A stretch of 63,644 nucleotides of DNA, counting the filler, from Folioceros fuciformis (lineage: Eukaryota), in NCBI GenBank assembly GCA_049999805.1. It is 23 parts of 23 records of this genome, joined end to end, with 100 filler letters (N's around TTAATTAATTAA, not from the genome) between each part and the next. Parts side by side here need not be neighbours in the genome. Positions count along the whole stretch, not along the records: positions 18,866 to 20,848 come from JBNGIO010000472.1; 22 more parts are not named here. One strand, 5' to 3'. A model generated the notes under the pieces. The model searched no databases. It had not been told where the DNA came from and saw only the letters and a program-made list of their open reading frames with translations. The translations under genes were made by a program, and so were the position numbers. The stretch's first letter is position 1; every line of letters begins with the position of its first letter. Shown here in pieces: positions 1 through 47,566 of the stretch.

Positions 1-1943
1 CACCGATTCCTGCACCCACAGCCATAGTTTCTGCTAACCCTGTTGTGGATTTTCCTGAGCAGCAGGATGCAGAAGTTGAGCAAGATGATGAGCCAGAATT
101 TGACTCACAACATGTGGACATCCATCCTGATGCTCCTGACCAGCTAGCAGATGAACCTGAGTTGGCAGCCCCTCCATGGCCTGAGCCACAACCAGCTGAG
201 GAGACACTTCCTGAACCTGTAGTTGAGGAACGGAGGTATCCTACAAGGTCTCGTCCTGCACGAGACAGCTGGAATGAAAGACCATATGAACCAGAGGATT
301 TCCGTCTTCCTCGATCTGCAAGGCTCTGTGAAGCCTTCTCCACAAGCACAGCTCATCCAGCAGAACCTCGTACTTATCGAGAGGCCATTAATGGTCCGGA
401 CAAGCATCATTGGATCCCTTCAATTCAAGATGAATATAATTCATTAATCAAGAATGGGACATGGGAGCTATGTCCATTACTTGCTGGGAGGACAACAGTA
501 AGTTGCAAATGGGTTTTCAAACACAAGCTGAATGCTCAGGGAGAAATAGCCCGATATAAGTCACGTCTGGTTGCTCGAGGCTTCTCCCAAGTTGCAGGGG
601 TGGACTTTAATGAGACATTTAGCCCTGTTGTCAAGACACAGACTATTAGGATGCTGCTCGCTCTTGCAGCTTCTAGAGATTGGGATCTTGAGCAGATGGA
701 CGTTTCAACCGCATTCCTGTATGGAGAGCTTGAAGAAGACATCTATATGGATCAGCCTAAAGGCTTCGTGGACCCTGAACATCCAGATTGGGTCTGCAAA
801 TTAAACAAGACCCTATACGGCTTGAAGCAAAGTGCCCGTGAGTGGTACAAGTGTATTGATAAATACCTCAAGTCGATAGGTTTCATCCAAAATCCAGCTG
901 ATGCCAACATATACATCTATTCCAAAGGAGGTCACATGGTCATCCTAGCCCTTTATGTGGATGATGTTATACTAGCATCCAACAATAGAGAATTACTGGA
1001 CTGGGTGAAAGGAATGTTGCACAAGGAGTATGATATGAAGGACATTGGACCACTTACCTTTGTCCTTGGCGTTCAGCTGCTGAGAGATAGACCCAACCGC
1101 ACACTTATTCTACATCAGACTAAATATATTGGTGAGACTCTTAGCCGCTTTAATTTGCAGGACGCTAAACCTGTCACCACACCAGGAAGCCTTGGGGTTA
1201 AGCTCTCTGCTAACCAATGCCCGCAAGATGATTATGAACGAGAGGCTATGAGTCAAGTCCCTTACTGCCATGCCGTGGGCTGCCTTAATTACATCAGCTG
1301 CTGGACTAGGCCTGATATTCAGCACTCTGTTAGTGTTGTTTCCCAATACCTTGAGAACCCAGGCCCCGAACATTGGATGGCAGTTAAGAGGATCCTACGG
1401 TACCTCAAAGGCACATCTACCTTTGGGCTATGTTTCTAGGGCGATGACCGTGCACTCACCATTGAGGGATACGCAGATGCCGATTGGGCTATAGATCCGA
1501 ATTAGCGGAAAAGTATTTCTGCATATTGCTTTTTGCTCTCTGGTGCGGCAGTCAACTGGAGCTTTAAGAAATAGACTTCAATAGCCCTCTCTTCAACTGA
1601 GGCAGAATACAAAGCTCTCACGGACTCCGCCAAGGAGGCTGAGTGGGAGCGCTCTTTCTTAGCCGGATTGGGCTTTCCTCAGTCGATTCCCACCACTATC
1701 TTCTGCGACAATATGTCTACTATTGCCTTGGTTGGGAATCCCCGTTTCCATGCGCGCACCAAGCACATCGAAGTTCACCACCACTATGTTCGGCATTCCG
1801 TGGAGCGCAAGGTGATCAAGATCCAACACATATCCACAGAGCTCAATACAGCCGACGTGCTTACAAAGAGCTTACCAACAAACAAGCATGTTTTTCACAT
1901 GGAGGCTTTGGGCCTCGTTGAGTATTCCTCCTACTTGCCTTGA
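1..1943 (+). mobile_element. Ty1/Copia pol fragment (RT + RNase H), degenerate
   Basis: RT motifs CKWVFKHK, KSRLVARG, QMDVSTAFL, LYGLKQS, LYVDD. The same frame continues past TAG stops at 1437, 1503 and 1572 into RNase H (YADADWA, SSTEAEY, CDN, RTKHIEV, ADVLTK), ending 1943. Confidence 0.97.
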
Positions 1944-5478: not shown

Positions 5479-8400
5479 CTCCCTCTTAAGTGAGACATAA
5501 CCTACCTTTTCAATTAAGAGCTAAGTAGTAGTCATGCTCCCTCTGTCAGGTGAGTCCTCCCTTGTACTTGGTCGGCAGAGAAGTAGGGTGAGTAATCCAC
5601 AAGTCCCATTCTCTGCATGTGTTGGTAGTGTCTCGACTTGGGCATGCCCTTTGTCAAAAGGTCTGCTAGGTTTTCTTCTGTGGGTACATAACCAGCTTGT
5701 ACCACCTTGCGCTCCACTACGTCACGGATGTAGTGTTGCTGAATCTCTATATGTTTTGTCCTAGCGTGAAATTTGGGGTTGGAGATCAATGCCAAGGCTG
5801 ACATGTTGTCGTAGTGAAGGGGTGTGGGCTGATCTTGCTTCTGGCCTATATAAGATAGAAAAACCCTTTCCCATTCAGCTTCTTTGGAGGCGTCTGTAAG
5901 AGATTTATATTCGGCTTCCGTGGAAGAGAGTGCTATGGAAGTCTGCTTCTTACGGCTCCAGTTCACTGTGGCTGCGGATAAGAGGAAGCAATGTGTGCTC
6001 AAACTTTTCCTTGAGTCTAGATCAAATGCCCAGTCGGCATCCGTATAACCAGTGAGAGAGAGCTTGCCTGTTCCTCCGCTTTGGTATACAAGCCCATATG
6101 TTAGGGTTCCCTACACGTAGCGGAGCACCCTCTTGACGGCAGCCTAGTGTGCCTTGCCAGGTGACTCTAAGAATTGGGATACCGTGGAGACAGAGTATTG
6201 GATGTCACGCCTTGTCCAACCAGTGACGAAGAGGAGGCTACCTACGGCGTGACGATAGGGAATCCCTTGCATCTCTTTGGCTTCCTCCTTAGTTTGTAGG
6301 CACTGATCGGCTGTGAGCTTAGTGCCCACAACGTAGGGAGTGGATACCGGCTTGGCTTGATCCAACTTGAACTTTCGTAGTATCTCATTGATGTACTTCA
6401 GCTGGTGGATGACCAGTCTTCCTTCTGTCTAGTTCCAATGGATTTGTATGCCAAGGCAAAACTTGTTCAACTATGTCCTTCATTTCGAAGCGAGCGCTCA
6501 GGAGTTGCTGCAAGCAACCTCTGCTAGCATTTCAGAGTTGTTTGCTGCAAGAATGAGGTTGTCAACATAGAGAGCAAGGACCACAAAGTGAGGGCCTCGG
6601 GACAGCTTGTATACACTACCGTCGGCCGTACTATGGGCAAAGGAGACGCTCATGAGGTAGGCGTGCATGGTGGTATACCAAACCCGGCCACTTTGCTTAA
6701 GGTCCTAGATACACTTCCGCAGCCTTAGGACTTTACCTGGGTGTTGCTTGCTAGCATAGCCTTCTGGCTGCTCCATATAGAGCTCCTCGTCCAAGTTGCC
6801 GTAAAGAAAAGCAGTCGTTACGTCCATTTGGTGGAGTTCTAGGTCGGCAGGGTCATTTACATGAGATGGGCTTCCTCCCATGAGCCGGGTCGACTAGCTC
6901 CCAAGTTTTGTTCTGAACCAAACTCTGGTATTCATCTTCCACTGCGGGCCGCCACTGGGAGGACTCAGGGCCAGTAAGTGCTTGGGTCAGAGTAGCTTGC
7001 TCCTCAGGTAAAGAGGAGGAAGGGGTTAACGGAGAGGGGTCTGAAGGCAGTTCGAAAATCCATTGATTGATAGGGTGGCTCAGCCCATTGGGACGGCGGT
7101 GGCCAGTGATGGGTGTTGCGGCGAAGGTCAGGAGCTGGTGCAGGATCTGGCATAGGTGGCACAGTAGGCGGCGTCTCACCTACGTCTGACACAAGAGGTG
7201 GAGCAGCTAGTGATGTTCCATTAGGGACATCGACGTCAGGTGCTGGCAGCAAGTTACTAGCAGCATTGTTACCGGCGGGAGGTGGGTCACCGAAAGCACC
7301 AGTATGGTCTTCAGGTGGGAAGGCCTGAAAGAATGGGTAGCCGTCCTCAACATCCGAGTCGGCGTCCACTATGTGAAGAGTGCTGGGGTCACTGTCCTCC
7401 GGAGGGAAGCTTAATAAAGGGTCTGAGTTAGGGGGAACAGGGTCTTCGGTCGAAGCGGCTCCCTCTAAAGCTGGCTTAGCAAGCTCCATGAAGGTAATAG
7501 CCCGTGCAAGGGTGATATTGTAGGTCTCAGGGTCTACGAGTTTGTAGGCCTTGGTGGATTCACTGTAGCCTACAAAAATCAGCTTCCTTGCCCTATCCTC
7601 TAACTTGCGCCGCTTTTGTGCAGGGATGTAGGCAAAGCTTCTGATCCAAAGACCCGCACGTGTTGAATACTTGGCTTCCGTTTCCAAAATACCTCGTATG
7701 GAGTGCGGCTAGATGCAGAGCTTGTGATAATCCGGTTCAAGATGTATGTAGCGGCCACTATGGCTTCAGCCCAAAAGCGCTGCGGAAGACCGGACCACAA
7801 GAGCATGCTTCGAGTCATGGAGAGGAGCGTCTGGTTCTTACGCTCAACAACCCCATTTTGCTGCAGGGTGTAGGGAACACTGAGTTGTCTTTGGATTCCT
7901 TGCTCAAGCAAGAAAGCATCAAACTCATTGTTTACAAACTCACTCCCATTATCGCTTCGCAGGGTTTTCAGCAAGTTTCCCGTCTGACACTCGACAACAA
8001 GTAGCCAGTCCTTAAAATAAGCGAATGTGTCGCTCTTCAGGTGCATGGGGAAGGTCCACGAGTATCTGCTAAAGTCGTCGGTGAGGGTGAGATAGTAGAT
8101 CGCCCCTCCTAGGGATGGAGTGTGAATCCTTCCCGATATATCGGCATGGACCAGCTCTAGCACTAACTCTGCCCTCTGCGCATGTTTGGGAAATGGCGAC
8201 TCCTTATGCTTTGCAAGCACATATGGCTCGCAAACGGGAAGTTGCCGGAAGCATCTTGGCAGAGATTCCTTGTATAGGTCCTGTGATGACATTGAGATCA
8301 ACTTATTCTTGTAAATGTGACCAAGCCTGGCATGCCAAAGGGTAGCCAGACTTGAAGAGGGCTGTTCAGCAGTGAAGACAAGGGGCTCCTGTCTGCTGTC

Positions 8401-9460
8401 CAAGGTGAGCTTATAAAGTCCATCTTGAAGGATGGCTTTTAACACGCACAGGTTGGAGTTAGTTGGCCTGTGACGGCCACACTTGCGGTCTGGCGCAGGC
8501 CAGGCTTTTGTGGCTCTCCGACCTTTTTCTTGCGGCACTCTTGTGCCCAATGACCGGGTGTATCGCACCTATTGCAGTTACCTGCCCGGCGTGGTGGAGC
8601 TGAGGTCAACTCACCCTTGGAGGTAGTGGCCTGCTTCCCCTTGAGTTTCCCAGGCTTAAAACGAACAGCGAGTGCCTTGTCTGCCTTGGGCTTGGACCCT
8701 ACTGCAGAATTGAGGCGGCTTTGTTCGTGCTGGTAAAGGGCACCGATGATTTCCTCCTCCACTGTCACAGAGGAGGTGGATCCAGAGATGCCGCGAGTTG
8801 ACACCAGCATCAGGATAGTGACAAAATGTTGGTAGGAGGCCGGCAAACTCATGAGCAGTTGAGCAGCAGTGTCGGTCTTGGTCATCAGTGACCCAAGGGA
8901 GGCCAACTGCCCTCTAAGCTGTTTGAACTTAGAGGTATGTGCTGCAATTGTGTCCATCTCCTTCATCTTAAGTGCATTGAATTCTTGTCCGATGTTGCAG
9001 AGTGTCTAGACATTGTTCACATCATAAGTGTTGGAGAGTTGGTTCCAAATGGAAGAGGCTTCTATGAGGAACTCGACGCTCGGCACTAAGCTCGAGTCCA
9101 AGCCAGAGATAAGGAACGCCACTGCAATTCCGTTTAAATATTCCCACTTCTCAATGTCAGTTGCAGAAGGAAGAGGGGTTGCAGTGGGGTCTGGTTTGGG
9201 GTGGCTCCCATTGACAATTTTCCAAACACCACGGCCAATCAGAATTGACTTCATTCGCACTCGCCATACTGAATAACGCTGGCCGTTAAAACGGTCATTT
9301 TCCTTTATATGGTCGGTGAATGTTGGCATAGATCCTATGGGTACAAGGACAATTGTGCTGGTGGCCATGGAAGCTGGTAGAATAATTGAAAGCAAATTAA
9401 AATGTTCAAGAAGCTGATTAGCCACGTCTCTGTAAGTTGAGGTCATAAAACTTGTTCTAG
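5291..9460 (-). mobile_element. Near-complete degenerate Ty1/Copia element (gag, integrase, RT, RNase H)
   Basis: gag DRFNGQRYSVWRVRM, UBN2-like region, zinc knuckle CNRCDTPGHWAQEC. Integrase LWHARLGH, VHADI, DDFSR, RSDNGSEF, QQNGVVERKN. RT remnants (QMDVTTAFL) and RNase H at 5532-6050. Frameshifts and stops throughout. Confidence 0.96.
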
Positions 9461-9899
9461 TGTCCTCCTAGCGCAAGTGCCACCAACGTCCTAGTAGTCA
9501 AGGGGCTTGTGAGCAATCTTGGACAGGCTCTACTAGGCGGCAAGGTCGGTAGATCGGATCCACTAAATGCTCGGCGGTGAGTTGGAGCTGGTCCAGGAGT
9601 GCCGAGGTGTGGTTGATGAGAGGCGGGGGTGTCGAGGCATGCTCGATCTTCACACAAGAATTCTCAAGAACTTGCTAGCTGTCAGGCAAGAAGTAGTAGA
9701 AGAAGGGGTCGAGTGTGAACCGGCACCGGGCNNNNNNNNNNNNNNNNNNNNNNNNNNNNNNNNNNNNNNNNNNNNTTAATTAATTAANNNNNNNNNNNNN
9801 NNNNNNNNNNNNNNNNNNNNNNNNNNNNNNNTTCTCGAGCTCGTATTCGATCTTGTTCAGGTAAAGGAGCGGGCTCTTAGCTTTTAGCTCGACCTTGCA

Positions 9900-18865: not shown

Positions 18866-19508
18866 CGGCTGTACAGTGTCTGGTAGGATCACAAGGTGTA
18901 ATGACCAGGGTGAAGGGGCTTGCCCCTAGCTCTTGATTGTAAAGGATGTGTCTTTCTCTCGACCTGTCCACTCTTGTTCCCTGTTTGGACTAGTGCTGTA
19001 GGCCGGTCATGTTTCATGGCGTCTAGTAAGGTTGTGGGGAGGAGATATCCGGGAGGGGAGTGTGTTCCTTCCTTTCTTTTCTTTGGGGTTAGTCTAGTGA
19101 CTCTTATCGAGTAAGAGGAGTTAGTAGGGAAGTGTAGAAGGTAGTGGTGTTGTTGTTGGTTGCTAGTGTTGGTGTTGGAGTTGGAGCGAGAGAGTGAGTG
19201 AAGTGAGTGAGGGAAGTCATAGATCTGAGAGGTTAGGGTCATTGTAGTGACTGGAGTGAGTTTGTGGGCACCGAGAGAGGTACAGCTGACCGCTGGACAG
19301 TGAGGCCTGTCCTACGCCTGATCGGAGCTGGAGGGGAGCCCTCGAATCCATCATCGAGTCGATTGAGTTCGACCCTCCATCCACAGCAGCAAAGAACCCC
19401 ATCGCTCCTTCGTGGGAATGAAACCCAATATCTCAACGACAGTGGGATAAGTGTGGCCACTAAAGGTGGAACCTGTCGGCAATCAGTGCCCGGGGTTTTG
19501 CCTCCACA
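18866..19508 (-). repeat. Young LTR-like repeat family A, copy 1, inserted in Gypsy RT
   Basis: Starts TGTGGAGGCAAAACCCCGGGCACTGATTGCC. Highly similar to copies at 26955, 46447, 47566 and 62630. Confidence 0.92.
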
Positions 19509-20040
19509 CCACCCATTCCCACAAACATCTATTACCCCAAAAAGCAATCTTCTTCCTATCCTCCTCCTCAATTTCAATTTGGTTAAAGCCACCCCTAAAA
19601 TCCAATGTTGAAAATATATTACATTCACCAATCGCATAAAAAATCTCCTCTAAAGTTCGCATTGGATATCTATCCATAGGCGTCACCTCATTAAGCAGTC
19701 TATAGTCACCACACATCCTCTTTTCTGTCCAATTACCATGCACATCGTTCTTTGGTGGGAGCACCGTAGTTGCTACATACTCTAATTCCGAAGATCTTAT
19801 CAATCCAGCTTCAAGTAGCTCTTGACATTTCTTGACCACAATCTCATTCTCCAATTTACTCAAACGATATGGCCTTCTAAAAACCTTCATAAGTTTTAAG
19901 CCGAATCTTAAACTTAAGAGGCTTGTGCCTGCCCAATTCCTTATTGGCAAAAGCAAATACCAGCCTGCTACTTTCCAAAATCCTTACAAAATCCTCCTGT
20001 TCTCCAAGGTTATCTCATCAGAAATATCCCACTGAAAATC
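19509..20040 (-). mobile_element. Ty3/Gypsy reverse transcriptase, N-terminal part
   Basis: RRPYRLS...LLEAGLIR..., GNWTEKRMCGDYRLLN, DRYPM, FSTLDFRGGFNQI, KIAFWG. Interrupted after EWV by repeat family A. Confidence 0.95.
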
Positions 20041-20319
20041 CATACACTCTTGTTTCTCACATATGTTAACCTCACAGCTTGAGCTAGCCACATTCCCAGC
20101 TTTTCTTTCCGCATCTACCACCTTTGCCCCATATCTGATTTGCTTGCTCTGCTTGCACTCATCACCTAAAACCTCATTATGCTCTCTCATTCTCTTAGTC
20201 TCCCCCCCAACGTCTAGGCCTTCATCTCTTCTTACTTTACCCAAACTACGTCCTTCCAACCTTGTGCTTAAAATAACTTTCCACTTTCTCTTCCACTCTT
20301 GATAAACTTTTATAGACAT

Positions 20320-20848
20320 CATAAGCCATCTGACTGTATTCAAATCCATAGCTTGTCCGAGTTTTTTTATTCCTCTGCTCAAATGTTATACTCTCCACTT
20401 GAGTAGCATTTGTATCAAAACCCATCGCCCTCTCTCTCTCCATGGGCGATGGCACATCCCACACCTTTCTCTTCGTATCAAATATCATCCCAAGCCCTTC
20501 CCCTTTAAATGCATTGGCGCCCTCAAAACTTACAAATGTTGGTAACGCCCTCCTGAGCTCCCCCTTTTTATTTACACAATAAAAAGGCTGTCTATCATCC
20601 GAAGTCACCTGCCTACTCACTCGCCCCTCATCTAATATCTGATCAACTATTAAATCATCATCCCTTCACCACTGACTCACAAGCATCTGCAACAAATGCC
20701 TAGGCATTATGTTATTCCAAAAACAACGATGCCTATGAGCCCTAGATCCAAACTGCACTGCATCCAACTTTATAGGTTCACCCAAATAATACTTGATCTC
20801 CTCAAAATCTCGCCTCAACGCTACTCTTCTATCCATTTGGGAATCCAC
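20320..20848 (-). pseudogene. DNMT3-like C5-cytosine methyltransferase catalytic domain (C-terminal half) in the Gypsy polyprotein
   Basis: PIKLDAVQFGSRAHRHRCFWNN (motif VIII RxRxFW.N), ALPTF, ERERAMGF..NAT (motif IX), QRNKKLGQAMD (motif X, after a 1-nt frameshift in an A run). One TGA at 20666. 5' half lost at the gap. Confidence 0.85.
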
Positions 20849-20948: not shown

Positions 20949-22227
20949 AAGACGTGGACTTACCTTTTGAAAGAGAAGTCTAAGGTGTTCCAGATTTTTA
21001 AGGATTGGAAGACTTTGGTCGAGACCGAATGTGGTGAATGTCTTAAGATGCTTCGAAGTGACAATGGAGGAGAATATGTTTCTTCTCAGTTCCAAAGTTT
21101 TTGTAAAGAGAATGGCAACTCACGATTCCGCACACCTCGCAACAACATGGAGTCGTGGAGCGGAAGATACGGAGCCTTGTGGAAGCAGCCAAGTGCATGT
21201 TGTTTCATAGCGGCTTGCAGGTCAACTTTTAGGGAAGCAGCCAAGTGCATGTTGTTTCATAGTGGCTTGCAGGTCAACTTTTGGGGAGAGGCTGTCATGA
21301 CAGCAACCTATGTGTTGAACAAAGTTTCGACAAAGGCCGTACCCAGTATGAGACCACAGGACGCTTCGTCTGGTATAAAACCTGATATTCGACATTTGAG
21401 GGTTTTCAGTTCCTTGGTCTACGCTTGTATCCCGAAGAAGAGCAGGACCAAATGGGATACTAATGGAACGAAGTGCCTCTTGCTTGGCTATTCAGATGCA
21501 GTGATGAGGAGTTGTATTCACTGTTCATGATATATATATTTTGTTATGGCAATATATAGGGTATATGGTTTATGGTTATGTTATACATTATTATATGTGT
21601 ATACCCTTTCCCTACTAGCCTCCTTGTAGCGCCCTATGTTGCAAGTCAGCCTTTCGCTTAATCTTGAAAGTCCACTTGGATCCTTTGTATTTTGTTATAT
21701 GTATAATAATGTATAATGTAATAATATATTGGGTTGTATATGGCAGCCTCTGCCGCAACCATGGAAGCTATATGGCTTAGGCGATTGCTCAAGAAATGGG
21801 GTTCAAGCAGCAAGGTGCAACACCCATCTTCAATGACAATCAGGGCTATATTTATCTGGCTAAAAGTGCTATTTTCCATGTAAGGGCTAAGCACATCGAA
21901 GTTAAGCATCACTTCATTAGGGAGAAAGTCCAGCCAAAGGAAATAGTTTTAGTTTATTATCCTACAGAGGACATGCCCGCCGATATACTTACGAAAGGTT
22001 TAGCTTTAGACAAGCATATGAAGTTTAGCAAGATGCTAGGGTTAATCGAGTAAGTCACGTATAGAATAAGTGATAGATGTGTTGAGTGGGAGTGTTAGAA
22101 AACCCATATTGTTTAGAGTTTGTGTGCACTACATCTAGGACTATATATGTAAGCATAGGCTATTGCTCTAAATGCACTAAACTGAGGCTCTTACTTGGGG
22201 CTTATCTGGGATATTGTGTTTCTAACA
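20949..22227 (+). mobile_element. Internally deleted Ty1/Copia (integrase, RNase H end, PPT, 135-bp 3' LTR)
   Basis: LRSDNGGEY, FWGEAVMTATYVLN, then RAKHIEVKHHFIRE...ADILTK (to 22053). RT absent. PPT TGAGTGGGAG, then LTR 22093-22227 with TGTTAGAA...TTCTAACA termini. Confidence 0.9.
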
Positions 22228-22232
22228 TGGCA

Positions 22233-22427
22233 TACGAAGTCTACCAATAGTACTTGGTATACTACGAAGTCTACCAATAGTACTTGGTATACTACGAAGT
22301 CTACCAATAGTACCAAGCACAGAGTCGAAGCAGGGAGTCGGAGTTGGTTTGATCAATCAAGTTGGAGTTGGTTTGATCAGTCAAGTTGGAGTTGGTTTGA
22401 TCAATCAAGTTGGAGTTGGTTTGATCA
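22233..22427. repeat. Two adjacent tandem repeats (30-bp x~2.7, 24-bp x~3.7)
   Basis: TACGAAGTCTACCAATAGTACTTGGTATAC units at 22233-22313. GGAGTTGGTTTGATCAATCAAGTT units at 22340-22427 running into the gap. Confidence 0.95.
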
Positions 22428-22638
22428 NNNNNNNNNNNNNNNNNNNNNNNNNNNNNNNNNNNNNNNNNNNNTTAATTAATTAANNNNNNNNNNNNNNNNN
22501 NNNNNNNNNNNNNNNNNNNNNNNNNNNTTTCTTCTCATTTCATTTCTAGGTATTTTATATTGTATTATATAATATTTATTTAAATAATAACACATTCCTA
22601 AAGTTTTAAAGAAGAAATTAATTAAAAAAAGATAATTC

Positions 22639-23814
22639 ATGTATCTAAGAGGAAATTGGAAGGAAATGGAACCAGCAAATGAGGATAATGATGATTGTAT
22701 TCTATGTACAGAATTGCTTGTAAATGAGTTGTGGGTGTGTTTGCATCCCTGTGGCCATAGTTTCCATGCATCTTGCATAGCTAAGTGGTTTTTTAGTAAG
22801 GTGGAAGTGGATGTAGATGCACCCAAGCCTGAACCAAAATTTGAAAGACGATGTTGCATTTGCCGAGGTAAGTGGAGCTCAAGTGGATCCCCACAACAAG
22901 TTGAGAATGTAAATAATAAAATGGAAGGTACTAACGCAGATGTAGAGCTTGAGCTAAACAAACTTATTGATGCACATAGAAAGAAAGTAATAAAGTTGAT
23001 AGAAGAACAAAAGGAAACAAGTAAACAAATAGCAGTGAACCAAGAATCAAATCCAATCAATGAACATGAAGATGAGTGTCCATTATGCAATGAATCATTT
23101 TCCATGGAGCATTGGTGCAGAATGAATCCTTGCATGCACGGCTTCCATGTGAGTTGCTTGTCAGACTACATCATGAGCTTACCTGCCCATACATTACCCA
23201 CCATTTATTGTCCCTTGGAACAATGCAATCAAATATTCTACTTTCAACAACCAATGAGGTGGTTGGGTTTTGATTTTGCTATCCGCCCACATATTCCTGA
23301 ACATTACACAGAGTTGATCGGAGATGAGGGTGATTCATTAGAAGTGGAAGTGGACAAGTTTTGGGCCATCTTATTTTCTCTTTTTGTGCAGCAAAGAGAT
23401 GTAGAGGTGGATTCCCTGGTGAAGAAAGTACATGATGATCCTGAGGAACTATGGAAAGAGTTCAAAAACATTGGAAAGTTTTCACATCTTGAGCTACAAC
23501 AAATTTGCTTCTCTTGTGGATATCCGTTGGCATGTAATTCATGGATGCAAACTTCGTGTGGTCACTCATTTCATTTGAGATGTCTGAGTCAGATCTTAAG
23601 ACGGGATAGAACATGTCCTGTATGTAATCTAAACCTTATGAATGCTCATGTTCAACCTTGTGAGGCTGTGTGGACACCTTTTACAACGAAGATCAATGGA
23701 AACAAACAAGAAATACGAGCACTCATTTTGTGGTGGTTAGAAGATATATGGAGAATGGAGACGCTTGGAAGGGATGAAGCTTTGATTAGAGGACAACTTC
23801 CAAGGCAAGCATGA
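22639..23814 (+). CDS. Intronless 391-aa protein with three RING-H2-type zinc fingers (putative E3 ligase)
   Basis: CILC..CGHSFHASC..CCIC; CPLC..CMHGFHVSC..CPLEQC; CFSC..CGHSFHLRC..CPVC. Uninterrupted ORF. Confidence 0.85.
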   Translation: MYLRGNWKEMEPANEDNDDCILCTELLVNELWVCLHPCGHSFHASCIAKWFFSKVEVDVDAPKPEPKFERRCCICRGKWSSSGSPQQVENVNNKMEGTNADVELELNKLIDAHRKKVIKLIEEQKETSKQIAVNQESNPINEHEDECPLCNESFSMEHWCRMNPCMHGFHVSCLSDYIMSLPAHTLPTIYCPLEQCNQIFYFQQPMRWLGFDFAIRPHIPEHYTELIGDEGDSLEVEVDKFWAILFSLFVQQRDVEVDSLVKKVHDDPEELWKEFKNIGKFSHLELQQICFSCGYPLACNSWMQTSCGHSFHLRCLSQILRRDRTCPVCNLNLMNAHVQPCEAVWTPFTTKINGNKQEIRALILWWLEDIWRMETLGRDEALIRGQLPRQA

Positions 23815-25742: not shown

Positions 25743-26954
25743 TGTTTGCGGAAGCATGAAGGTAAAGAGAGACTAGGCCATGAGACAGGAAAAAATGATT
25801 ATATATTATGAAATAACAAAGTACATGCTTCTTAAATTAAAACTCATTAAACTAATCTCGTAGATCAACTAACCCTAGGTATGTTAACTAACACACGGTT
25901 AATCTAACCCTCAACACTCCCTCTTAACTTAACAGGGATAGCTATTAATAGAAACACGTATAGAACGTGCACAAGTTATGACTCAAGCACCAAACAAATC
26001 CCGCTCCAACAACTAAGGACCATGAGCACGTTCTCACGCATGCCCTCATAACGCCTGGAACACACTCACGAAAACTCGTGCCGTTGGTCTGAATTCCAAA
26101 GCGCTCCATATGGAACCTACCATTTTTGAGATCTTAAATTTTCTTGTCACCGGCCTTGCTGCAATAGTCCTCTTAATCACAATTGCTCTTGAGAGGAAGA
26201 TAGCGCACACACACCCCAATGGCAGAATGTCGAGCCAGAGAGGATGGAGGCCACCACCAGCACAACTAGAGAAAAGTTGCATCATAATAGAGCCTGCAAC
26301 AAGCTCCAAGGAAGGGAAGACGCGATCACGCTCCTTAGCAACAAAAGCTCAATCGGTGAAAAATAGGGCAACGCCAGCTTACATCGAACTTCTTCAAAAG
26401 GTTGATCTAGAGCTATTGCGCCACCTCCGTACGATGGCCCTGAAATGTGAAGATGACAAGGAAGCCATGCCGCACAAGCCAAAGTTCTCGAATTCAAAGA
26501 CATGCTCGCCAAGACTCCCGACAACTGTGGTTTCGATCTCCCTCTGACCATGGACAGGCAGACAGATACAATCAAAGAGCTGGAGCAACATGGGTGTGTC
26601 TGATTCTTACCATACTAGGGTATGGTAAGAATCAGACACACCCATGTTTAGATCCTTCGTTTCAACTTCATCCACTAAGTGTGTTCATCTTAACTATCAG
26701 CGCGTGTGTAGGAGAACAATTACAGATTGAATAGAAGGACCCTGAGAACATCCCGAGCTGCCTGAAACTATAAAGGCTGTAGGTAGAACTCTGCACAAAG
26801 CTGGTAGTCTGTAGGCTCAAATTGTTCTTAAAGTTTAGCTCGAGGCAGAGAAAACTCTTTGAGCCCCATGGCTGCCATATGTTGGTAGTGTTTTGATTGT
26901 GGCAAGCACTTCGTAAGAATATCATCAGTGTTTGAATTAGTACTGATATACTGG
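25743..26954 (-). mobile_element. 3' end of a Copia element (RNase H tail, long 3' region, PPT, 174-bp LTR)
   Basis: YISTNSNTDDILTKCLP..MGL ends at 26828. PPT AAGAGGGAG, then LTR TGTTGAGG (25916) ... GCTTCCGCAAACA (25743). Confidence 0.8.
26110..26547 (+). CDS. 145-aa ORF with N-terminal hydrophobic helix, antisense within the Copia 3' region
   Basis: ATG-initiated and intact. ILNFLVTGLAAIVLLITIAL is a plausible signal anchor. No family recognised. Confidence 0.45.
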   Translation: MEPTIFEILNFLVTGLAAIVLLITIALERKIAHTHPNGRMSSQRGWRPPPAQLEKSCIIIEPATSSKEGKTRSRSLATKAQSVKNRATPAYIELLQKVDLELLRHLRTMALKCEDDKEAMPHKPKFSNSKTCSPRLPTTVVSISL

Positions 26955-27203
26955 TGTGGAGGCAAAACCCCGGGCACTGATTGCCGACGGATTCCATCTT
27001 TAGTGGCCACACTTATCCCACTGTCGTTGAGACATTGGGTTTCGTTCCCACGAAGGAGCGATGGGGTTCCTTGCTGCTGTGGATGGAGGGTCGGACTTGA
27101 TCAACTCGATGATGGATTCGAGGGCTCCCCTCCAGCTCCGATCAGGCGTAGGACAGGCCTCGCTGTCCGGCGGTCAGCTGCACCTCTCTCGGTGCCCACA
27201 AAC
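26955..27203 (+). repeat. Repeat family A copy 2, inserted in Copia RNase H
   Basis: Begins TGTGGAGGCAAAACCCCGGG at 26955 and runs into the gap. Confidence 0.92.
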
Positions 27204-37542: not shown

Positions 37543-39688
37543 GACATCCATCTGCTGCACTTCCAGGTCGTATTCAGCTGCCATAGCCAACAAGATGCGG
37601 ATTGAGGGAGGCTTGACGACTGGTGAGAAGGTGTCACCATAGTCTATGCCTGGAATCTGACTAAATCCCCTAGCAACTAACCTAGATTTATACCGAGCAA
37701 TGGTCCCGTCTGCCTTGAGTTTAGTCTTGAAGACTCACTTTCAGCTGATAGGTTTCCGGCCGTCTGGTAAGTCCACAAGTTCCCAAGTATTATTTTTTAT
37801 AAGGGATGCATACTCGTCATCAATAGATGTTCTCCAGTGAGGGCCATCAGGGCCATTAATCGCTTCATCATACGTCTGTGGGTCAGGACAAACTTCAGGC
37901 ATGTTAAAATCAAACACATGTGCTTGTGCTCCTCATCAAAAATCCAGTAGGTAGCTCATCGTCTAAAAAATCTATGGCTTCACCATGATCCGATAGTGAA
38001 CCAGTAGACTCTGCCTGTGCATCATGCACATCAAAGAAGCCTTGATTGACATGTGGGTCTGATGCAGGCTCTTCATCAACGTTATTATTATCCACCACAA
38101 GTAATAAGTACTCGTCATCATAATCAAGATAGTTCACTACTGGTTGTGGAATAACTGATTGAGGTGGACCTGCTGCAGATACAGCTTGTGTAGAAACTTC
38201 AGCCAATGGTTCAGAACCTGGATTGTCCTCCTCGTCAGCCACTTGTCGCTCGCAATCAGCCAAGATGAGTATATTGGTGCCATAGTATGTAGCTATACTC
38301 TCGCGAGGTGATGAAAGTTCATCAAAGGTTACACTGCGAGCTAGTACCACTCTTCTGGTTGCAGGCTCATATAGTTTGTATGCTTTTGACACCTCAGAGT
38401 AACCAAAAAATAATAAGGGCTTGGCCCTGTCATCTAGCTTGCATTGTTTCTGTTTAGGGACATAAGCATACACTATGGAGCCAAATACTCACATGTGCAA
38501 CAGACTTGGTTTCTTCTTCCAAATGACCTCGTAAGGGGGTTTACCAGGTACAGAGGTTGTCAATATTCGATTTAGTATGTAAGCAGCTGTTGCAAGGGCA
38601 TTTGCCCAGTATTGTTTAGGTAGTCCTGCCCATCCTAGCATGCTCCTGGTCATACCCATTAAGGTTTGATTCTTACGTTCGGCCACTCCATTTTGTTGCT
38701 AAATGTACGGGATTGAAAGCTGGTGTATAATTCCATGGGTTTCAACAGCACTTCATATTGGTGACCTATGAACTCTCCACCGTTGTCGGTGCAAAAGTGT
38801 TTCACCAGGTTGCCAGTCTGTCTTTGTACCATAGACATCCAAGATTCAATGCACTCAAAGGCATCACTTTTAAGACGAAGTGGGTACACCCAAGTGTAGC
38901 GCGAGTAGTCATCTATTAAGGTAAGATAATACTCAGGCCCACCTAGTGACTTTACCTGTAGCTTGCCTACAATGTCCGCATGGACAAGTTCTAACACCGA
39001 TTGAGCTATGTGTGCTTGTTTATTTTTGAAGGGAAGCTCCTTCTGCTTCGACATAACACAAGACTGATAGACGGGGAGATGCTTAAAGCATGAGGGCAGT
39101 TTCTCCCTAAAACAGTCCAAGGAGGCCATGAGGTTCAACTTCTCCCTATTAACATGCCCAAGCCTAGCATGCCATAAGTTTGCTTCAAACACAATAGAGG
39201 TAACATTTGCTTTTGGTTCTATAGTCATGTTCAGCTGATAAAGTTTGTTAACAAGCTGACCCCTAGCAATGCATCTACCAGGTCTGGACAAATCATAGAG
39301 ATAGCAGTGGCCTTGCTCGAAATAAAAGCCATATTTTCCAGACTGGGTGGCTGTACGGACTAATAGCAAATTCTTTGACATGGTTGGCTTATACATGACA
39401 TCTTCGAACAAGATTTTAGACGCATCAGACAAGGTAATGGAAACTGAACCTACTCCACGTACATCTACGCCTCTAGAGTCCCCCACGTACATTGACTGTG
39501 GTGCAACCTCTGTTGTTAGTGTGGCAAACAAGTCCTTGTTATTACACACATGAGACGTAGCCTCTGAGTCAATGAACCAGGAGTCAGACAATTCAGTAGA
39601 GGATGACAAACAAACTGTTACTATTAAGACGCTCGAGCTGCTATTGTGTGGAGTGGATCCCTTGTCCTTAGCAGCGAAATGTTGTGGT
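37543..39688 (-). mobile_element. Ty1/Copia pol fragment (protease, integrase, start of RT)
   Basis: WFIDSEATSH, LWHARLGH, VHADI, IDDYSR, TDNGGEF, AERKN, DTFSPVVK..QQMDV. Frameshifts and stops. Confidence 0.96.
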
Positions 39689-41834
39689 NNNNNNNNNNNN
39701 NNNNNNNNNNNNNNNNNNNNNNNNNNNNNNNNTTAATTAATTAANNNNNNNNNNNNNNNNNNNNNNNNNNNNNNNNNNNNNNNNNNNNGTATACAGAGGG
39801 GCAAAACATTCTATCAAACAACCCTTGACCATATCGATATTTCATACATGTGGACCGATACGGACACGTACTATATTTTTTATTTGGGTTCATGCACCAT
39901 CATGAAAAATCAAGATGGCACATAATGTTTTCAGATACACTATATACATATGAAACATGTCGACGGTTCATAGGGGTTAGGGTTTGGTAGTGTTTCAGAG
40001 ATGTATTGATTGACACCGCCGTGACGACTTGTTTACGGTTTCGGGTTTAGGTCTAGTCTAGGACGTGCACACCGACACACTTACAACAGCAACACGGTTC
40101 CTTTATACACCTACCAATTTGACCTCTCCAGTTTCTACTGCATGCCTGATGAAATGGTGATGTACTTCTATGTGCTTAGTACGGGCATGGAAGACTAGGT
40201 TTTGGGCTAGTGCTAGTGCAGACTGATTGTCACAGAATATCATGATTGGGTTCTTCTCTGGCTGACCCATATCTACCAGCAACTTACGTAACCAAATGGC
40301 CTCCTTAGATGCTTGTGTAAGTGCTGAATACTCTGGGCCATAAAGGTATTATGTGTTGCTCCATTGTGTTCGTCTAGGGGAACTGCAGTGGAACAAACGA
40401 GCAATGACATTGTTCGATAACCTAAACATGTAGACCGAAAAGCATGTTTTAAACTTCATATCCAGCCTCCGTGAGGAGGCAGCGACCTCCCATGATATTG
40501 GGGGGTAGAGGATAGAGGCTGGCATGCGGGAACTTAGTGTCTACAATTGGCTCTTGTAGCGATGTTGTGGTGTGTCTTGCATTCCAGACCCTGCGAGGCA
40601 GCTGTACATAAAGTGTTGTTGGAACCCTAAACTAGTGAACGATCTATAGTATGTCCTATCTGCGAGGTTGTCATGGCATGTGGCGCCGCGTGCACATCAC
40701 TGTGTCCTTCGTGTAAACTGCTTTTTTTGTCGTAGACATTCGAATGAGGCTTGTGCTTGGCCTACACCATATTGCAATGGCAAGTATGGATGTATTGGCT
40801 TGCTGGTGAGTCTCAAGATGTCCTTATTGACCTGATGAGCCACCCCCCACCCGTGCGGCTATGTCACGTGTACTTGTAGTTACAGTAATTAGTACGGTAG
40901 CTTGGTAGAGGTGTGTTGATGAACACCTAAGGCTGTTGCTAGGCCATATGGAATTTGCAACAAGTGGATGCATATTCCAATCCCATTTTGCAGTGTATGA
41001 GGGGGCCCATGTCGGGCGGTTGAAAGTATAGTGAGAGCGATGGTGGACTCCAAAGCAACCCGCATGTACGATGCAACCCACAAAAATGTGTTGCAATTGC
41101 ATAAGAAGCTTGTGGCATGCACATGGCACAAATCCAATTCCTAGACACCGGTAGCAAATTGTCAGAAGTGCGGCATGCCTTCAGGGTGTCACTTGGATGC
41201 AATCCGCATTGTTCGTTGGCGTAGGTAGGGTAATTGACGCGATCACCACGTGTTATGTGGAAGACAAGACCAGGAGCGCAGATGCACCTATCTGCGACAT
41301 GTGCCTTTGGAACACGATGTTCAAAGTATGGGCACGAATGCTGTCGGAGCGAGTTGGGGTGATAGGGCGGGAGCCCATTCGTGCACGGACGGAATGAGGT
41401 AGAGGGTGTTGACCCTGGCTGCGACGACGCTAAGCAGCGATTGAGGGCCATGTGTGCAAAGAGTAAGGGACGGGTGCCCCTAGTGTGGTATGCACGTTGG
41501 TAATAGGTGCACACAGTGGCGGTGGTCAGCTTCTATAGGGGGGACAGGGCATTTTGTGGATTGCGATGGACATGGCCTTGGGGGTGCATAGGTTACTGCT
41601 TGACGAGGAGGAAGGTTGGCTAGGGGCCATGCATGCCCTAGTCAACACAGCGGGGGAACCAATTGCCAAGAACCATGTTGCACGCTTCCGGCTGCACATG
41701 GTGGATGGGCCTGAAGATGGTGGACGGGCAAGGGGTGGAGGGGACACCATGGCGAGGGCAAAGGCGATGGGGCTGTCGGTCCTCAGGAGGATGAAGTGGT
41801 CCACGAGCAGGAGGAGGGAGGCGATCGACGGCGG

Positions 41835-43955: not shown

Positions 43956-44106
43956 GCGTGGACAAGCATTTGCCTCCTTTGCTCTCTGTAGTAATGGGGG
44001 GAGGGGNNNNNNNNNNNNNNNNNNNNNNNNNNNNNNNNNNNNNNNNNNNNTTAATTAATTAANNNNNNNNNNNNNNNNNNNNNNNNNNNNNNNNNNNNNN
44101 NNNNNN

Positions 44107-45140
44107 CTTGCACTTGGCTGAAACATCGTTGCACTGACTCCGTCATAGGTTCCTGCACCTCCAAAGCCCACACCTACTCTTGCACTTGGCTGAAAGCCGA
44201 CTCCCTCAAAGGTTTTGGGACCGACTCCCTCATAAGGTCCGGAACCGACTCCCTCATAGAATCCGGCACCGACTCCCTCATAGAATCCGGGACCGACTCC
44301 CTCGTAGGTTCCAGCACTGACTCCCTCATAAAGTCCGGGATCGACTCCCTCATCGGGTCCGACACCGACTCCCTCATAAGTTCCGGCACCGACTCCCTCA
44401 TAGGTTCCGGCACCGATACGATCATAGGCTTCGGCATCAACTTCGTCACGGGTTCCGGCATTGACTCCACCATAGATTCCAGCACCGACTTCAGCATAGG
44501 GTCCGGCACCGCCTTCAGCATAGGGTCCGGCACCGACTCCCTCAGAGGATCCAGCATCGACTCCCTCAGAGGATCCAGCATCGACTCCCTCATAGGATCC
44601 GGCATCGACTGCCTCACAGGTTCCGGCACTGACTCCATCAAAGGATCCGGCATCGACTCCCTCATAGGTTCCGGCACCGACTCCCTCATAGGTTCCGGCA
44701 CCGACTCCCTTATACGTTCCAAGCTCAATTCCATTATAGGCTTCGGCATGGACTTCGTCACAGGTTCTGGCACACACTCCATCACAGGTTCCGGCACCGA
44801 TTCTATCATAGGCTTCGACATCGACTCCATCACAGGTTCCGGCAGGTCCTGCCATCTCACCACAAACTTCATCGTAGGTTCCCACACCTTCGCAGCCCGC
44901 ACCTACTCTTGCACTGACCAACGTGCCACAAGGGTGACCAGGTGCCACACGGGGCACAGAACTATCCATGGGAATGTTGTACCCCAATGAAGGGTCTCCC
45001 ACACAGCCACGGTCTATGCCGGCTTGCATCCCTCGGCTACGACCCCTGCACGGAGCTTGTCCTTGACCTCGGTCGTGACCCGAAGGCCGGATGAGGTCTG
45101 CACCCGCATTGCCTCCATCGCCTCTCCCTGAAATGGCCAT
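44107..45140 (-). CDS. ORF with ~25-30 Gly-rich octapeptide repeats (24-bp minisatellite), 3' truncated by gap
   Basis: ATG at 45140, open to the gap. (T/S/P)YEGV(G/D)AG units at ~44170-44850. A second frame (MRESVPEP) is also open. Confidence 0.5.
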
Positions 45141-46063: not shown

Positions 46064-46447
46064 GAGTCAGTAGGGAAGTGTAGAAGGTAGTGGTGTCATT
46101 GTTAGTTGCTGGTGTTGGTGCTGGAGTGAGAGAGTGAGTGAAGTGTGTGAGGGAAGTCGCAGATCTGAGAGGTTAGAGTCGTTGTAGTGACTGGAGTGAG
46201 TTTGTGGGCACCGAGAGAGGTGCAGCTGACCGCTGGACAGCGAGGCTGTTCTACGCCTGATCGGAGCTGGAGGGGAGCCCTCAAATCCATCATCGAGTCG
46301 ATCAAGTCCGACCCTCCATCCACAGTAGCAAGAAACCCCATCGCTCCTTCGTGGGAACGAAACCCAATGTCTCAACGACAGTGGGATAAGTGTGGCCACT
46401 AAAGGTGGAACCCGTTGGCAATCAGTGCCCGGGGTTTCGCCTCCACA
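46064..46447 (-). repeat. Repeat family A copy 3
   Basis: Same TGTGGAGG terminus at 46447, with a unique flank. Confidence 0.92.
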
Positions 46448-47224: not shown

Positions 47225-47566
47225 TGTTGGTGTTGGTGCTGGAGTAAGAGAGTGAGTGAAGTGAGTGAGGGAAGTCACAGATCTGAGAGGTTAGGGTCGT
47301 TGTAGTGACAAGAGTGAGTTTGTGGGCACCGAGAGAGGTGCAGCAAACCGCCGGACAGCGAGGCCTGTCCTACGCCTGATCGGAGCTGGAGGGGAGCCCT
47401 CGAATCCATCATCGAGTTGATCAAGTCCGACCCTCCATCCACAGCAGCAAGGAACCCCATCGCTCCTTCGTGGGAACGAAACCCAATGTCTCAACGACAG
47501 TGGGATAAGTGTGGCCACTAAAGGTGGAACCCGTCGGCAATCAGTGCCCGGGGTTTTGCCTCCACA
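47225..47566 (-). repeat. Repeat family A copy 4
   Basis: Same TGTGGAGG terminus at 47566, with a unique flank. Confidence 0.92.

What the first reader, a model, noticed from the sequence alone, without database searches (positions are those of the whole stretch)
19509..20848. Gypsy retrotransposon carrying a DNMT3-like cytosine methyltransferase upstream of RT
Seen: on one contig and strand, DNMT motifs VIII (GSRAHRHRCFWNN), IX (ERERAMGF) and X (LGQAMD) are followed by a ~100-aa linker and Gypsy RT, broken only by scattered stops and frameshifts. Known: retrotransposon-borne DNMTs have been reported in dinoflagellates and the charophyte Klebsormidium but are rare. Inference: a polyprotein with its own methyltransferase, possibly methylating its cDNA or insertion sites. 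It may be a new lineage or host. This copy is dead.
Basis: partly seen in the sequence, partly recalled or inferred. Interest (0 to 1): 0.82.

Follow-up and report, generated by a model that had tools for sequence, protein, structure and literature searches.

The report
Dead Gypsy retrotransposon fragment carrying Dnmt3-like methyltransferase
This is a broken piece of a jumping gene whose own protein includes a DNA cytosine methyltransferase placed just before its reverse transcriptase; elements of this kind have been described once before in a green alga, and this copy is a decayed new example rather than a new kind of system.

Summary
On the minus strand of one 1,983-bp contig piece (18866-20848), the C-terminal half of a C5 cytosine methyltransferase (motifs VIII, IX, X) is followed after about 120 codons by the N-terminal part of a Ty3/Gypsy RT. 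One in-frame stop and three frameshifts break it. The contig end cuts the DNMT and a high-copy repeat inserted at about 19510 cuts the RT.

Pfam does not recognise the DNMT fragment. A search of 1.84 billion proteins gave 501 relatives (best E 7e-31). Many are gag-pol polyproteins with conserved catalytic residues.

These relatives have two layouts:
- **Type A:** RT-RNaseH-DNMT-integrase-PHD. Named hosts are Sphaeropleales chlorophytes.
- **Type B:** CCHC-protease-DNMT-RT-RNaseH-integrase. The only named host is Closterium.

The window copy is type B by collinearity, by DNMT and RT trees and by HMM scores, so the fusion is not a chance adjacency.

The family profile and an AlphaFold model match DNMT3A/B best. 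Placement against host DNMT3, DRM and ChloroDNMT clades was not tested.

The closest published system is KnitGypsy-Dnmt3 of Klebsormidium nitens (de Mendoza 2018). I could not see its domain order.

Verdict: a real, dead, new member of a known kind. Methylation of the element's own cDNA is inferred, not shown.

The parts
20366..20848 (-). C-terminal half of a Dnmt3-like C5 cytosine methyltransferase domain. It runs from just after motif VI, through motif VIII (20711-20749) and the short target-recognition region, to motif IX (20417-20440). There is an in-frame TGA at 20666-20668. The N-terminal half is lost at the contig end.
   Evidence: Translation; tblastn to type-B polyproteins at 38-44% identity, E 1e-25 to 4e-36; 501 relatives; motif coordinates; alignment A1.
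20296..20361 (-). Motif X of the methyltransferase (LGQAMDLNTV...), read in the neighbouring frame after a one-base frameshift in a homopolymer at about 20362-20368.
   Evidence: tblastn: P0176 residues 1161-1182 and P0166 residues 1077-1094 at 50% identity, collinear with the preceding piece. Laid contigs of runs X1 and X2 differ in length by one base at 20362 in about half of the depth.
20006..20295 (-). Poorly conserved linker between DNMT and RT. It holds a second frameshift at an unlocated position.
   Evidence: No relative aligns here. In 24 type-B proteins the DNMT-to-RT spacing is 76-233 residues; about 120 in the window.
19507..20005 (-). Pre-RT region (GEQEDFVRILESS...FAFANKELG, 19886-20005), a third frameshift at about 19886-19890, then the N-terminal ~125 residues of a Ty3/Gypsy reverse transcriptase. 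The RT is truncated before the YxDD region.
   Evidence: tblastn at 49-59% identity, E 1e-33 to 2e-43; RVT_1 E 2.8e-5, below cut-off; RT tree; HMM scores.
18866..19510 (.). Unrelated high-copy repeat that ends the RT. This is a nested insertion or recombination break, not part of the element.
   Evidence: Copies at 26948-27203, 46064-46454, 47225-47566 and 62630-63143, 90-98% alike. Summed depth is 45,000-268,000 against 77-476 for 19536-20848. Many contigs run on unlike beyond 19508-19509.

Best explanation
The stretch is a decayed, incomplete copy of a Ty3/Gypsy LTR retrotransposon lineage, here called type B. Its single gag-pol polyprotein reads zinc-knuckle Gag, aspartic protease, Dnmt3-like C5 cytosine methyltransferase, RT, RNase H, integrase, and in some members a C-terminal PHD finger. 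The methyltransferase sits at the protease-RT junction.

Shown: the domain order, the kinship of both halves of the window copy to this lineage, the conservation of catalytic residues across the family, the DNMT3A-like fold of a close relative, and the decay of this copy.

Inferred, about 40% likely: in intact elements the enzyme is made as part of Pol, released by the element's protease and carried in the virus-like particle or pre-integration complex. There it methylates cytosines of the newly made cDNA, or DNA at the insertion site, de novo. A new copy would then enter the genome already carrying a host-like methylation pattern.

This copy can do none of this. It has one in-frame stop and three frameshifts, lacks the assembled N-terminal half of the DNMT, and its RT is cut by another repeat.
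For: - **Collinearity.** P0045 residues 1108-1265, 1274-1288 and 1371-1495 map to 20848-20387, 20361-20317 and 19878-19507. With a type-A protein (P0014) the order is reversed.
- **Layout.** Full type-B layout by Pfam in P0179 and P0182. The same order appears in 40 type-B proteins, 24 of which hold both DNMT and RT.
- **DNMT tree** (59 rows). The window sits in a clade of 18 rows (16 type B, one untyped, the window) with SH-aLRT 100, opposite 41 type-A or untyped rows.
- **RT tree** (41 rows). The window groups with all 9 type-B rows, support 94.
- **HMM scores.** DNMT 207.3 bits (type B) against 178.8 (type A). RT 170.9 against 125.1.
- **Catalytic residues in 175 family DNMT domains.** Motif IV Cys 174, motif VI Glu 174, motif VIII Arg 175 and 174.
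- **Family profile against PDB.** DNMT3A 6.7e-26, DNMT3B/C 1e-23 to 1e-19, tobacco DRM 5e-14, M.HhaI 4e-10, DNMT2 1e-3. No DNMT1 or CMT at E<=0.01 among the 56 matches.
- **Structure.** AlphaFold2 model of P0003 has pLDDT 93.9. Its best Foldseek hit is DNMT3A 6w89_A, E 1e-20, TM 0.71/0.81.
- **Copy number.** The DNMT-RT part is multicopy in runs X1 and X2: 2-19 contigs per listed variable site, 81-90% alike.
- **Precedent.** KnitGypsy-Dnmt3 lies in the Pol ORF of a K. nitens Gypsy element. SymbioDIRS-Dnmt3 domains methylate CG de novo in yeast (PMC5890265, sections 9-11 read).
Against: - No PF00145 hit on the window fragment itself.
- LTRs, primer-binding site, protease, Gag, RNase H and integrase are not on this contig. 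No related locus could be fetched to show LTRs.
- By identity alone, type-A and type-B DNMTs match the window about equally (37-46%). Only the tree, the HMM scores and the domain order separate them.
- The trees used the quick search, whose starred branches are less safe.
- In 122 of 175 family members the proline of the catalytic Pro-Cys dipeptide is glutamate; only 43 keep Pro.
- The only assay of a Gypsy-borne Dnmt3 (K. nitens) showed no methylation, which its authors called inconclusive.
- Nothing here shows activity, substrate or timing.
Confidence: 0.88

Rival explanations
1. A host Dnmt3 gene or pseudogene happens to lie next to an unrelated Gypsy RT fragment, as in a nest of insertions. 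There would then be no fusion.
For: The contig is a nest of repeats; another repeat interrupts the RT at 19510. The linker 20006-20295 matches nothing.
Against: - The same DNMT-then-RT order occurs within single predicted proteins in 24 relatives from independent assemblies.
- The DNMT and RT halves each fall in the same type-B lineage.
- The spacing of about 120 codons lies inside the family's range of 76-233.
- No intron-like interruption is seen.
Confidence: 0.03
2. The junction is an assembly chimera: a short-read assembler joined a DNMT-bearing repeat and an RT-bearing repeat.
For: The assembly is very fragmented, with pieces of 1-10 kb. No single laid record spans the whole stretch.
Against: The order is the one found in Closterium and metagenome polyproteins. 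Contigs of runs X1 and X2 overlap one another across 19513-20809 without a common break (table 8).
Confidence: 0.03
3. The fusion is real, but the domain does not methylate DNA. It might be a pseudo-enzyme with a structural or DNA-binding role, or it might act on RNA.
For: - Pro is replaced by Glu in motif IV in 122 of 175 members.
- KnitGypsy-Dnmt3 showed no activity in yeast.
Against: The catalytic Cys, the ENV Glu and both motif VIII Arg are kept in 174-175 of 175 domains, and the cofactor motif FxG in most. That fits an enzyme under selection. The fold and profile are closest to the DNA enzymes DNMT3A/B, not to DNMT2.
Confidence: 0.15
4. The enzyme is active, but its role is to mark the element for silencing (self-restraint) or to methylate host DNA at or near insertion sites, rather than to disguise cDNA.
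For: The published discussion lists these options as open (PMC5890265, section 11). Some members carry a C-terminal PHD finger after the integrase. Pfam describes that domain only as a PHD finger; the idea that it steers integration by reading histone tails comes from PMC6673714 (passages) and was not tested here.
Against: No data here separate these roles. CpG depletion of the fragment (0.50) is the same as the rest of the window (0.20-0.72).
Confidence: 0.3

Closest known systems
KnitGypsy-Dnmt3 of Klebsormidium nitens (de Mendoza et al. 2018, PMC5890265; sections 6, 9, 10, 11 and 15 read)
   Same: An un-rearranged Dnmt3-type methyltransferase lies inside the Pol polyprotein of a Ty3/Gypsy LTR retrotransposon of a streptophyte-like host. 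Key catalytic residues are conserved across copies.
   Different: I could not see its domain order (the figure is not held and supplements are closed). No K. nitens sequence was at hand, so kinship to type A or type B is untested. The K. nitens element is said to have a DIRS-like repeat arrangement, which cannot be examined on this 2-kb contig.
Type-B polyproteins of Closterium spp. NIES-53/54/65/68 and of unnamed metagenome contigs (e.g. P0179, P0182, P0045, P0047; deposited as 'unnamed protein product')
   Same: Same order, CCHC-protease-DNMT-RT-RNaseH-integrase. Same DNMT and RT clades as the window copy.
   Different: Only 38-44% (DNMT) and 49-59% (RT) identical to the window, so this is a distant member in another host. 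My three searches found no paper describing these elements.
Type-A polyproteins (RT-RNaseH-DNMT-integrase-PHD) of Chromochloris zofingiensis, Monoraphidium neglectum, Scenedesmus sp. PABB004 and many metagenome contigs
   Same: Related DNMT domain (37-46% identity to the window), Gypsy backbone, and a PHD finger after the integrase as in two type-B members.
   Different: The DNMT lies after RNase H, not before RT. Type A forms a separate clade in both trees.
SymbioDIRS-Dnmt3 of Symbiodinium (same paper)
   Same: A Dnmt3-type domain in a Pol polyprotein, with two domain orders coexisting. CG methylation was shown in yeast.
   Different: The backbone is DIRS with a tyrosine recombinase, in a dinoflagellate host, and the capture was independent according to the authors.
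Mammalian DNMT3A/3B catalytic domain (PDB 2qrv, 6w89, 6kda)
   Same: Best sequence-profile and fold match. Collinear motifs I, IV, VI, VIII, IX, X and a short target-recognition region.
   Different: About 23% identity. No PWWP or ADD domains. Motif IV is mostly Glu-Cys instead of Pro-Cys. The domain is embedded in a retrotransposon polyprotein.

Membership tests
C5 cytosine DNA methyltransferase (Pfam PF00145) | Scores above the Pfam gathering cut-off | tested here: not met
   No hit on the four window pieces or on the read-through P0001. Relatives do pass: P0003 scores 63.7 bits against a cut-off of 22. The fragment holds only the C-terminal half.
C5 cytosine DNA methyltransferase (Pfam PF00145) | Motifs VIII (R-x-R), IX and X present and in order | tested here: met
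   AHRHR at 20711-20749, ERERAMGF at 20417-20440 and LGQAMD at 20332-20361. They align to the invariant columns of the family.
C5 cytosine DNA methyltransferase (Pfam PF00145) | Motif I (FxGxG), motif IV catalytic Pro-Cys, motif VI ENV | not testable with these tools
   These lie beyond the contig end at 20848. In 175 relatives, Cys is kept in 174 and Glu of ENV in 174. The Pro of Pro-Cys is kept in only 43 and is Glu in 122.
Dnmt3 clade of eukaryotic DNMTs | Closest solved relatives are DNMT3 enzymes, with un-rearranged motif order | tested here: met
   Family profile: DNMT3A 6.7e-26 against DRM 5e-14, M.HhaI 4e-10 and DNMT2 1e-3. The model of P0003 matches DNMT3A at TM 0.71/0.81. The window fragment alone: 25 of 26 PDB matches at E<=10 are DNMT3A/B/C, best E 0.12.
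Dnmt3 clade of eukaryotic DNMTs | Phylogenetic placement inside DNMT3, apart from DRM, ChloroDNMT and orphan clades | not tested
   No reference sequences of host DNMT3, DRM or ChloroDNMT could be obtained. ChloroDNMT, named in PMC12344493 (passages read), has no solved structure, so it is not excluded.
Ty3/Gypsy LTR retrotransposon | Pol order protease-RT-RNaseH-integrase and a Gypsy-type RT | tested here: met
   The window RT is 49-59% identical to RTs of proteins with RVT_1, RT_RNaseH, Integrase_H2C2 and rve in that order. Only the RT N-terminus is present in the window.
Ty3/Gypsy LTR retrotransposon | Long terminal repeats, primer-binding site, polypurine tract | not testable with these tools
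   The contig ends at 20848 and the element is interrupted at 19510.
KnitGypsy-Dnmt3 | Dnmt3-type domain inside the Pol ORF of a Gypsy element | tested here: met
   Shown in relatives of the window copy. The window itself keeps the order but not the open frame.
KnitGypsy-Dnmt3 | Sequence kinship and the same domain order as the K. nitens copies | not tested
   No K. nitens protein was named among the hits I could look up. The figure and supplements of the paper were not visible.

The most novel reading that the evidence does not exclude
The protease-Dnmt3-RT layout is an undescribed second lineage of methyltransferase-bearing Gypsy elements. It would be old enough to span Closterium, many uncultured algae and the unnamed streptophyte-like host of this window, and would be sister to a much larger RT-RNaseH-Dnmt3-integrase-PHD lineage in chlorophytes. 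Dnmt3-carrying retrotransposons would then be a widespread and long-lived feature of green-lineage genomes rather than a Klebsormidium oddity. With lower odds (about 0.15), the host is a land plant, a group said to lack methylase-encoding transposons (PMC6338049, passages read).
Probability: 0.3. Interest if true: 0.6.

Novelty: new member of a known kind. Interest (0 to 1): 0.4.

Why it matters
Cytosine methylation is the host's main weapon against transposons, so a transposon that carries its own de novo methyltransferase inverts the usual picture. Only one Gypsy case (Klebsormidium) is described in the papers I could read.

This dead copy adds little by itself. Following it showed that relatives form a large family: 501 clusters at 50% identity, with two fixed domain orders and near-invariant catalytic residues. 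Named hosts are Closterium for one order and Sphaeropleales chlorophytes for the other.

That gives natural intact candidates, in culturable algae, for testing what a retrotransposon-borne Dnmt3 does. It also raises a concrete biochemical question: whether the Glu-Cys form of motif IV is active.

Tried and rejected
- **Pfam on the window pieces and read-through.** No DNA_methylase hit; RVT_1 below cut-off.
- **Word-indexed search for longer homologues of P0001.** None at E<=0.01. The exhaustive search succeeded instead.
- **Whole genome of the window.** Not held, so no tblastn for intact copies in the host.
- **Locus scans.**
  - Metagenome contigs with P0079 and P0098 found no relative.
  - Viral contigs with P0179 found nothing.
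  - So no LTRs could be examined.
- **Rfam on the whole window.** Nothing.
- **Sequencing runs.** No RNA holder listed. The best holders share 0.31 and 0.27 of the words, about the share of the stretch (645 of 1,983 bases) that the high-copy repeat takes up. Organism names are coded.
- **Host identification.**
  - The Copia ORF's named hits are land plants at only 39-49% identity. The three best hits (75-89%) are unnamed.
  - An EB_dh-like ORF points to a Streptophyta-rich Atlas cluster, which is a lead only.
- **Earlier notes of this scan.** None for this genome or for look-alike sequence.
- **REM1 paper (PMC1291216).** Not held.
- **CpG depletion as a mark of self-methylation.** Rejected: the fragment (0.50) equals the window background.
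- **Type-A membership.** Rejected by order, trees and HMM scores.
- **The 18866-19510 repeat as the element's own LTR.** Rejected, because it cuts the RT mid-domain and is 100-1000 times more abundant.
Full report
**What the window is.** The 63,644 bases are 23 short contig pieces (1.0-9.6 kb) joined by spacers of 44 N, TTAATTAATTAA and 44 N. The finding lies inside one piece, 18866-20848 (1,983 bp), on the minus strand. No whole genome is held for the window.

**The observation.**
- The minus strand from 20848 gives one frame to about 20366. It holds GSRAHRHRCFWNN (20711-20749), ALPTFVSF (20525-20548) and ERERAMGF (20417-20440), with one in-frame TGA at 20666-20668.
- After a shift in a homopolymer at about 20362-20368, the next frame reads LGQAMDLNTVRWL (from 20361).
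- About 97 codons follow that match nothing.
- A conserved pre-RT stretch follows (20005-19886, back in the first frame). After a third shift comes the RT (19890-19507) with RMCGDYRLLN and FSTLDFRGGFNQI.
- The copy therefore has one stop and three frameshifts. The TAA at 19984-19986 is not in the frame that relatives use.
- The DNMT begins at the contig edge just after motif VI, so motifs I, IV and VI are not assembled.
- The RT ends after about 125 residues at about 19510, before its catalytic centre.

**Is it more than chance?**
- Pfam does not see the methyltransferase. There was no PF00145 hit on the four pieces or on the read-through, and RVT_1 reached only 24.4 bits against a cut-off of 29.6.
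- Against PDB sequences the 200-residue read-through gave 26 matches at E<=10. Twenty-five of them are DNMT3A/B/C, but the best E is only 0.12.
- The exhaustive search of 1.84 billion representatives settled it: 501 proteins at E<=1e-3, 270 at E<=1e-10, and the best at 7e-31 with 43% identity.
- The word-indexed search for longer proteins had found none.

**What the relatives are.**
- Pfam on eight hits showed long polyproteins with RVT_1, RT_RNaseH, DNA_methylase, Integrase_H2C2, rve and PHD. Shorter hits had a protease or zinc knuckle before the DNA_methylase.
Of 244 typed, 141 have the DNMT after RT/RNaseH or directly before integrase (type A). Forty have it after a protease and/or before RT (type B). 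Sixty-three are too short to tell.
- Full type-B layout, P0179 (2,352 aa):

  | Domain | Residues |
  |---|---|
  | zf-CCHC | 399-414 |
  | protease | 764-860 |
  | DNA_methylase | from 1018 |
  | RVT_1 | 1497-1656 |
  | RNase H | 1719-1848 |
  | Integrase_H2C2 | 1967-2023 |
  | rve | 2042-2135 |

- P0182 adds a PHD finger at 2300-2344.
- All 40 type-B proteins keep this order. In the 24 that hold both DNMT and RT, the spacing is 76-233 residues.
- Named sources of type B are four Closterium strains only.
- Named sources of type A are Chromochloris zofingiensis, Monoraphidium neglectum and Scenedesmus sp. PABB004.
- Most members come from unnamed metagenome or run assemblies.

**Where the window copy belongs.**
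- tblastn maps P0045 residues 1108-1265, 1274-1288 and 1371-1495 onto 20848-20387, 20361-20317 and 19878-19507, in that order. A type-A protein matches the two parts in the opposite order.
- DNMT tree, 59 rows: all 16 non-redundant type-B domains, 32 of 80 type-A and 10 of 18 untyped picked at random, plus the window read through with X at the shift. The window lies in a clade of 18 (16 type B, one untyped) with SH-aLRT 100, next to P0176 (support 84). The other 41 rows form the opposite side.
- RT tree, 41 rows: 9 type B, 30 of 59 type A, the window, and an unrelated window RT as outgroup. The window groups with all type B, support 94, best identity 58% to P0181.
- Profile HMMs agree. DNMT: 207.3 bits (type B) against 178.8 (type A). 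RT: 170.9 against 125.1.
- Both trees used the quick search, so stars are less safe. Plain identity of the DNMT to type A and type B is similar.
- The domain order, two trees and two HMM contrasts all point the same way. A host gene lying by chance beside an RT, and an assembly chimera, are therefore unlikely.

**Is it Dnmt3-like, and is it an enzyme?**
- A profile of 32 family members (A1) gave these scores against PDB:

  | PDB match | E-value |
  |---|---|
  | DNMT3A | 6.7e-26 |
  | DNMT3B/3C | 1e-23 to 1e-19 |
  | tobacco DRM | 5e-14 |
  | Arabidopsis DRM2 | 1e-9 |
  | M.HhaI | 4e-10 |
  | DNMT2 | 1e-3 |
  | DNMT1 or CMT | none among the 56 matches at E<=0.01 |

- The three aligned stretches are collinear with DNMT3A, so the domains are not rearranged as in DRM.
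- An AlphaFold2 model of P0003, the best relative, has mean pLDDT 93.9 and pTM 0.92. Its best Foldseek matches are DNMT3A/B/C catalytic domains, top 6w89_A at E 1e-20 and TM 0.71/0.81.
- In 175 complete family domains the motif IV cysteine is kept in 174, the ENV glutamate in 174, and the two motif VIII arginines in 175 and 174. The proline before the cysteine is kept in only 43 and is glutamate in 122.
- This conservation argues for a working enzyme under selection. The Glu-Cys form is unusual (my recollection of canonical motif IV) and untested.
- A true phylogeny against host DNMT3, DRM and the ChloroDNMT clade named in PMC12344493 (passages) could not be made. 'Dnmt3-like' therefore rests on the closest solved structures.

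**The surroundings.**
- From about 19510 to the contig end at 18866 lies a different repeat. It recurs in four other pieces of the window at 90-98% identity.
- In contigs of runs X1 and X2 its summed depth is 45,000-268,000, against 77-476 for 19536-20848. Dozens of contigs run on unlike beyond 19508-19509.
- It is a very abundant element with a sharp end that cut this RT. It is not the LTR of the DNMT element.
- The DNMT-RT part is itself multicopy in those runs: 2-19 contigs per listed variable site, and listed pieces 81-90% alike.
- About half of the depth differs from the window by one base in length at 20362, where the window's frame breaks. One contig in each of X1 and X2 lacks 432 bases between 19973 and 20406.
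- No RNA holder was listed.

**Host.**
- Organism names of the runs are coded.
- A Copia ORF of the window has unnamed best hits at 75-89% identity and named hits only in land plants at 39-49%.
- An EB_dh-like ORF resembles a cluster that is mostly Streptophyta, which is a lead only.
- CpG is depleted in every piece, observed/expected 0.20-0.72.
- The host is thus a repeat-rich, probably CG-methylated, streptophyte-like eukaryote that I cannot name.

**How it most likely works.**
- Shown: the methyltransferase is translated as part of gag-pol between protease and RT in intact relatives, and its catalytic residues are conserved.
- The protease-RT junction is a site where yeast Ty3 carries a spacer.
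- Inferred, following the published discussion (PMC5890265, section 11): the domain is released or stays attached to RT, travels with the replication complex, and methylates new cDNA or the insertion site.
- The published evidence is mixed. SymbioDIRS-Dnmt3 domains methylate CG in yeast, but the K. nitens Gypsy domain gave no signal, as did human DNMT3B in the same system (section 10).
- I put self-methylation of cDNA at about 40%, other active roles (self-restraint, marking of flanks) at about 30%, and a non-catalytic or RNA role at about 15%.

**What is known.**
- de Mendoza et al. 2018 describe Dnmt3 domains in the Pol ORF of a Gypsy element of K. nitens (section 9).
- A 2026 preprint refers to 'streptophytes (Gypsy-DNMT3)' as known (10.64898/2026.05.21.726589, passages).
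- A 2025 paper says some DNMT3 members are embedded in retrotransposons 'as previously reported' (PMC12344493, passages).
- An opinion article states that methylase-encoding transposons are absent from land plants (PMC6338049, passages).
- Searches for Closterium + DNMT3 + retrotransposon (0 papers), for six names of DNMT-retrotransposons (2 papers, both above) and for Zygnematophyceae + DNMT3 (15 of 210 papers listed, none of those on this by title or abstract) found no description of the type-A or type-B families.

**Verdict.** The item is a dead, partial, new member of a known kind. Whether its protease-DNMT-RT order is itself new depends on the K. nitens figure that I could not see. Interest 0.4.

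Noticed in passing
window 18866-19510; also 26948-27203, 46064-46454, 47225-47566, 62630-63143: A very abundant repeat, 90-98% alike between copies, with a sharp end at 19508-19510 and variable flanks. Its summed depth in two runs is 100-1000 times that of the neighbouring DNA. It has no Rfam match and its class is unknown. It occurs in 5 of the 23 contig pieces and may be why the assembly is so fragmented.
   Followed up: partly
family level (175 DNMT domains from public proteins): The proline of the catalytic Pro-Cys dipeptide (motif IV) is glutamate in 122 of 175 retrotransposon-borne DNMT domains and proline in 43. The cysteine itself is kept in 174.
   Followed up: partly
public proteins P0005, P0210, P0145 and about 140 others: A larger sister family of Gypsy polyproteins has the order RT-RNaseH-DNMT-integrase-PHD. 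Its named hosts are the chlorophytes Chromochloris, Monoraphidium and Scenedesmus. PMC12344493 (passage read) says algal groups that lack gene-body methylation also typically lack DNMT3.
   Followed up: partly
window 44101-44928: A tandem array of at least 23 copies of a 24-bp unit, open in several frames on both strands and giving repetitive peptides.
   Followed up: no
window 22636-23814 (+): An intact 392-residue open frame with several RING-type zinc fingers. It stands alone on a 2.4-kb contig piece. Whether it is a host gene or transposon-borne is unknown.
   Followed up: no
window 3-1439, 5532-9467 (-), 20949-22427, 37910-39732 (-), 61941-62573 (-): Several Ty1/Copia fragments, some with long open frames. 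The first has unnamed relatives at 75-89% identity and named land-plant relatives at only 39-49%.
   Followed up: partly
window 53383-53916 (+): A second, unrelated and decayed Gypsy RT fragment with five stops, about 30% identical to the RTs of the DNMT-bearing elements.
   Followed up: partly
all 23 contig pieces: CpG observed/expected is 0.20-0.72 everywhere, with a TpG/CpA excess. This is the signature of a genome with heavy CG methylation.
   Followed up: partly
window 19973-20406, in runs X1 and X2: One contig in each run joins 19973 to 20406, so a copy lacking these 432 bases (motif X and the linker) exists in that sample.
   Followed up: no
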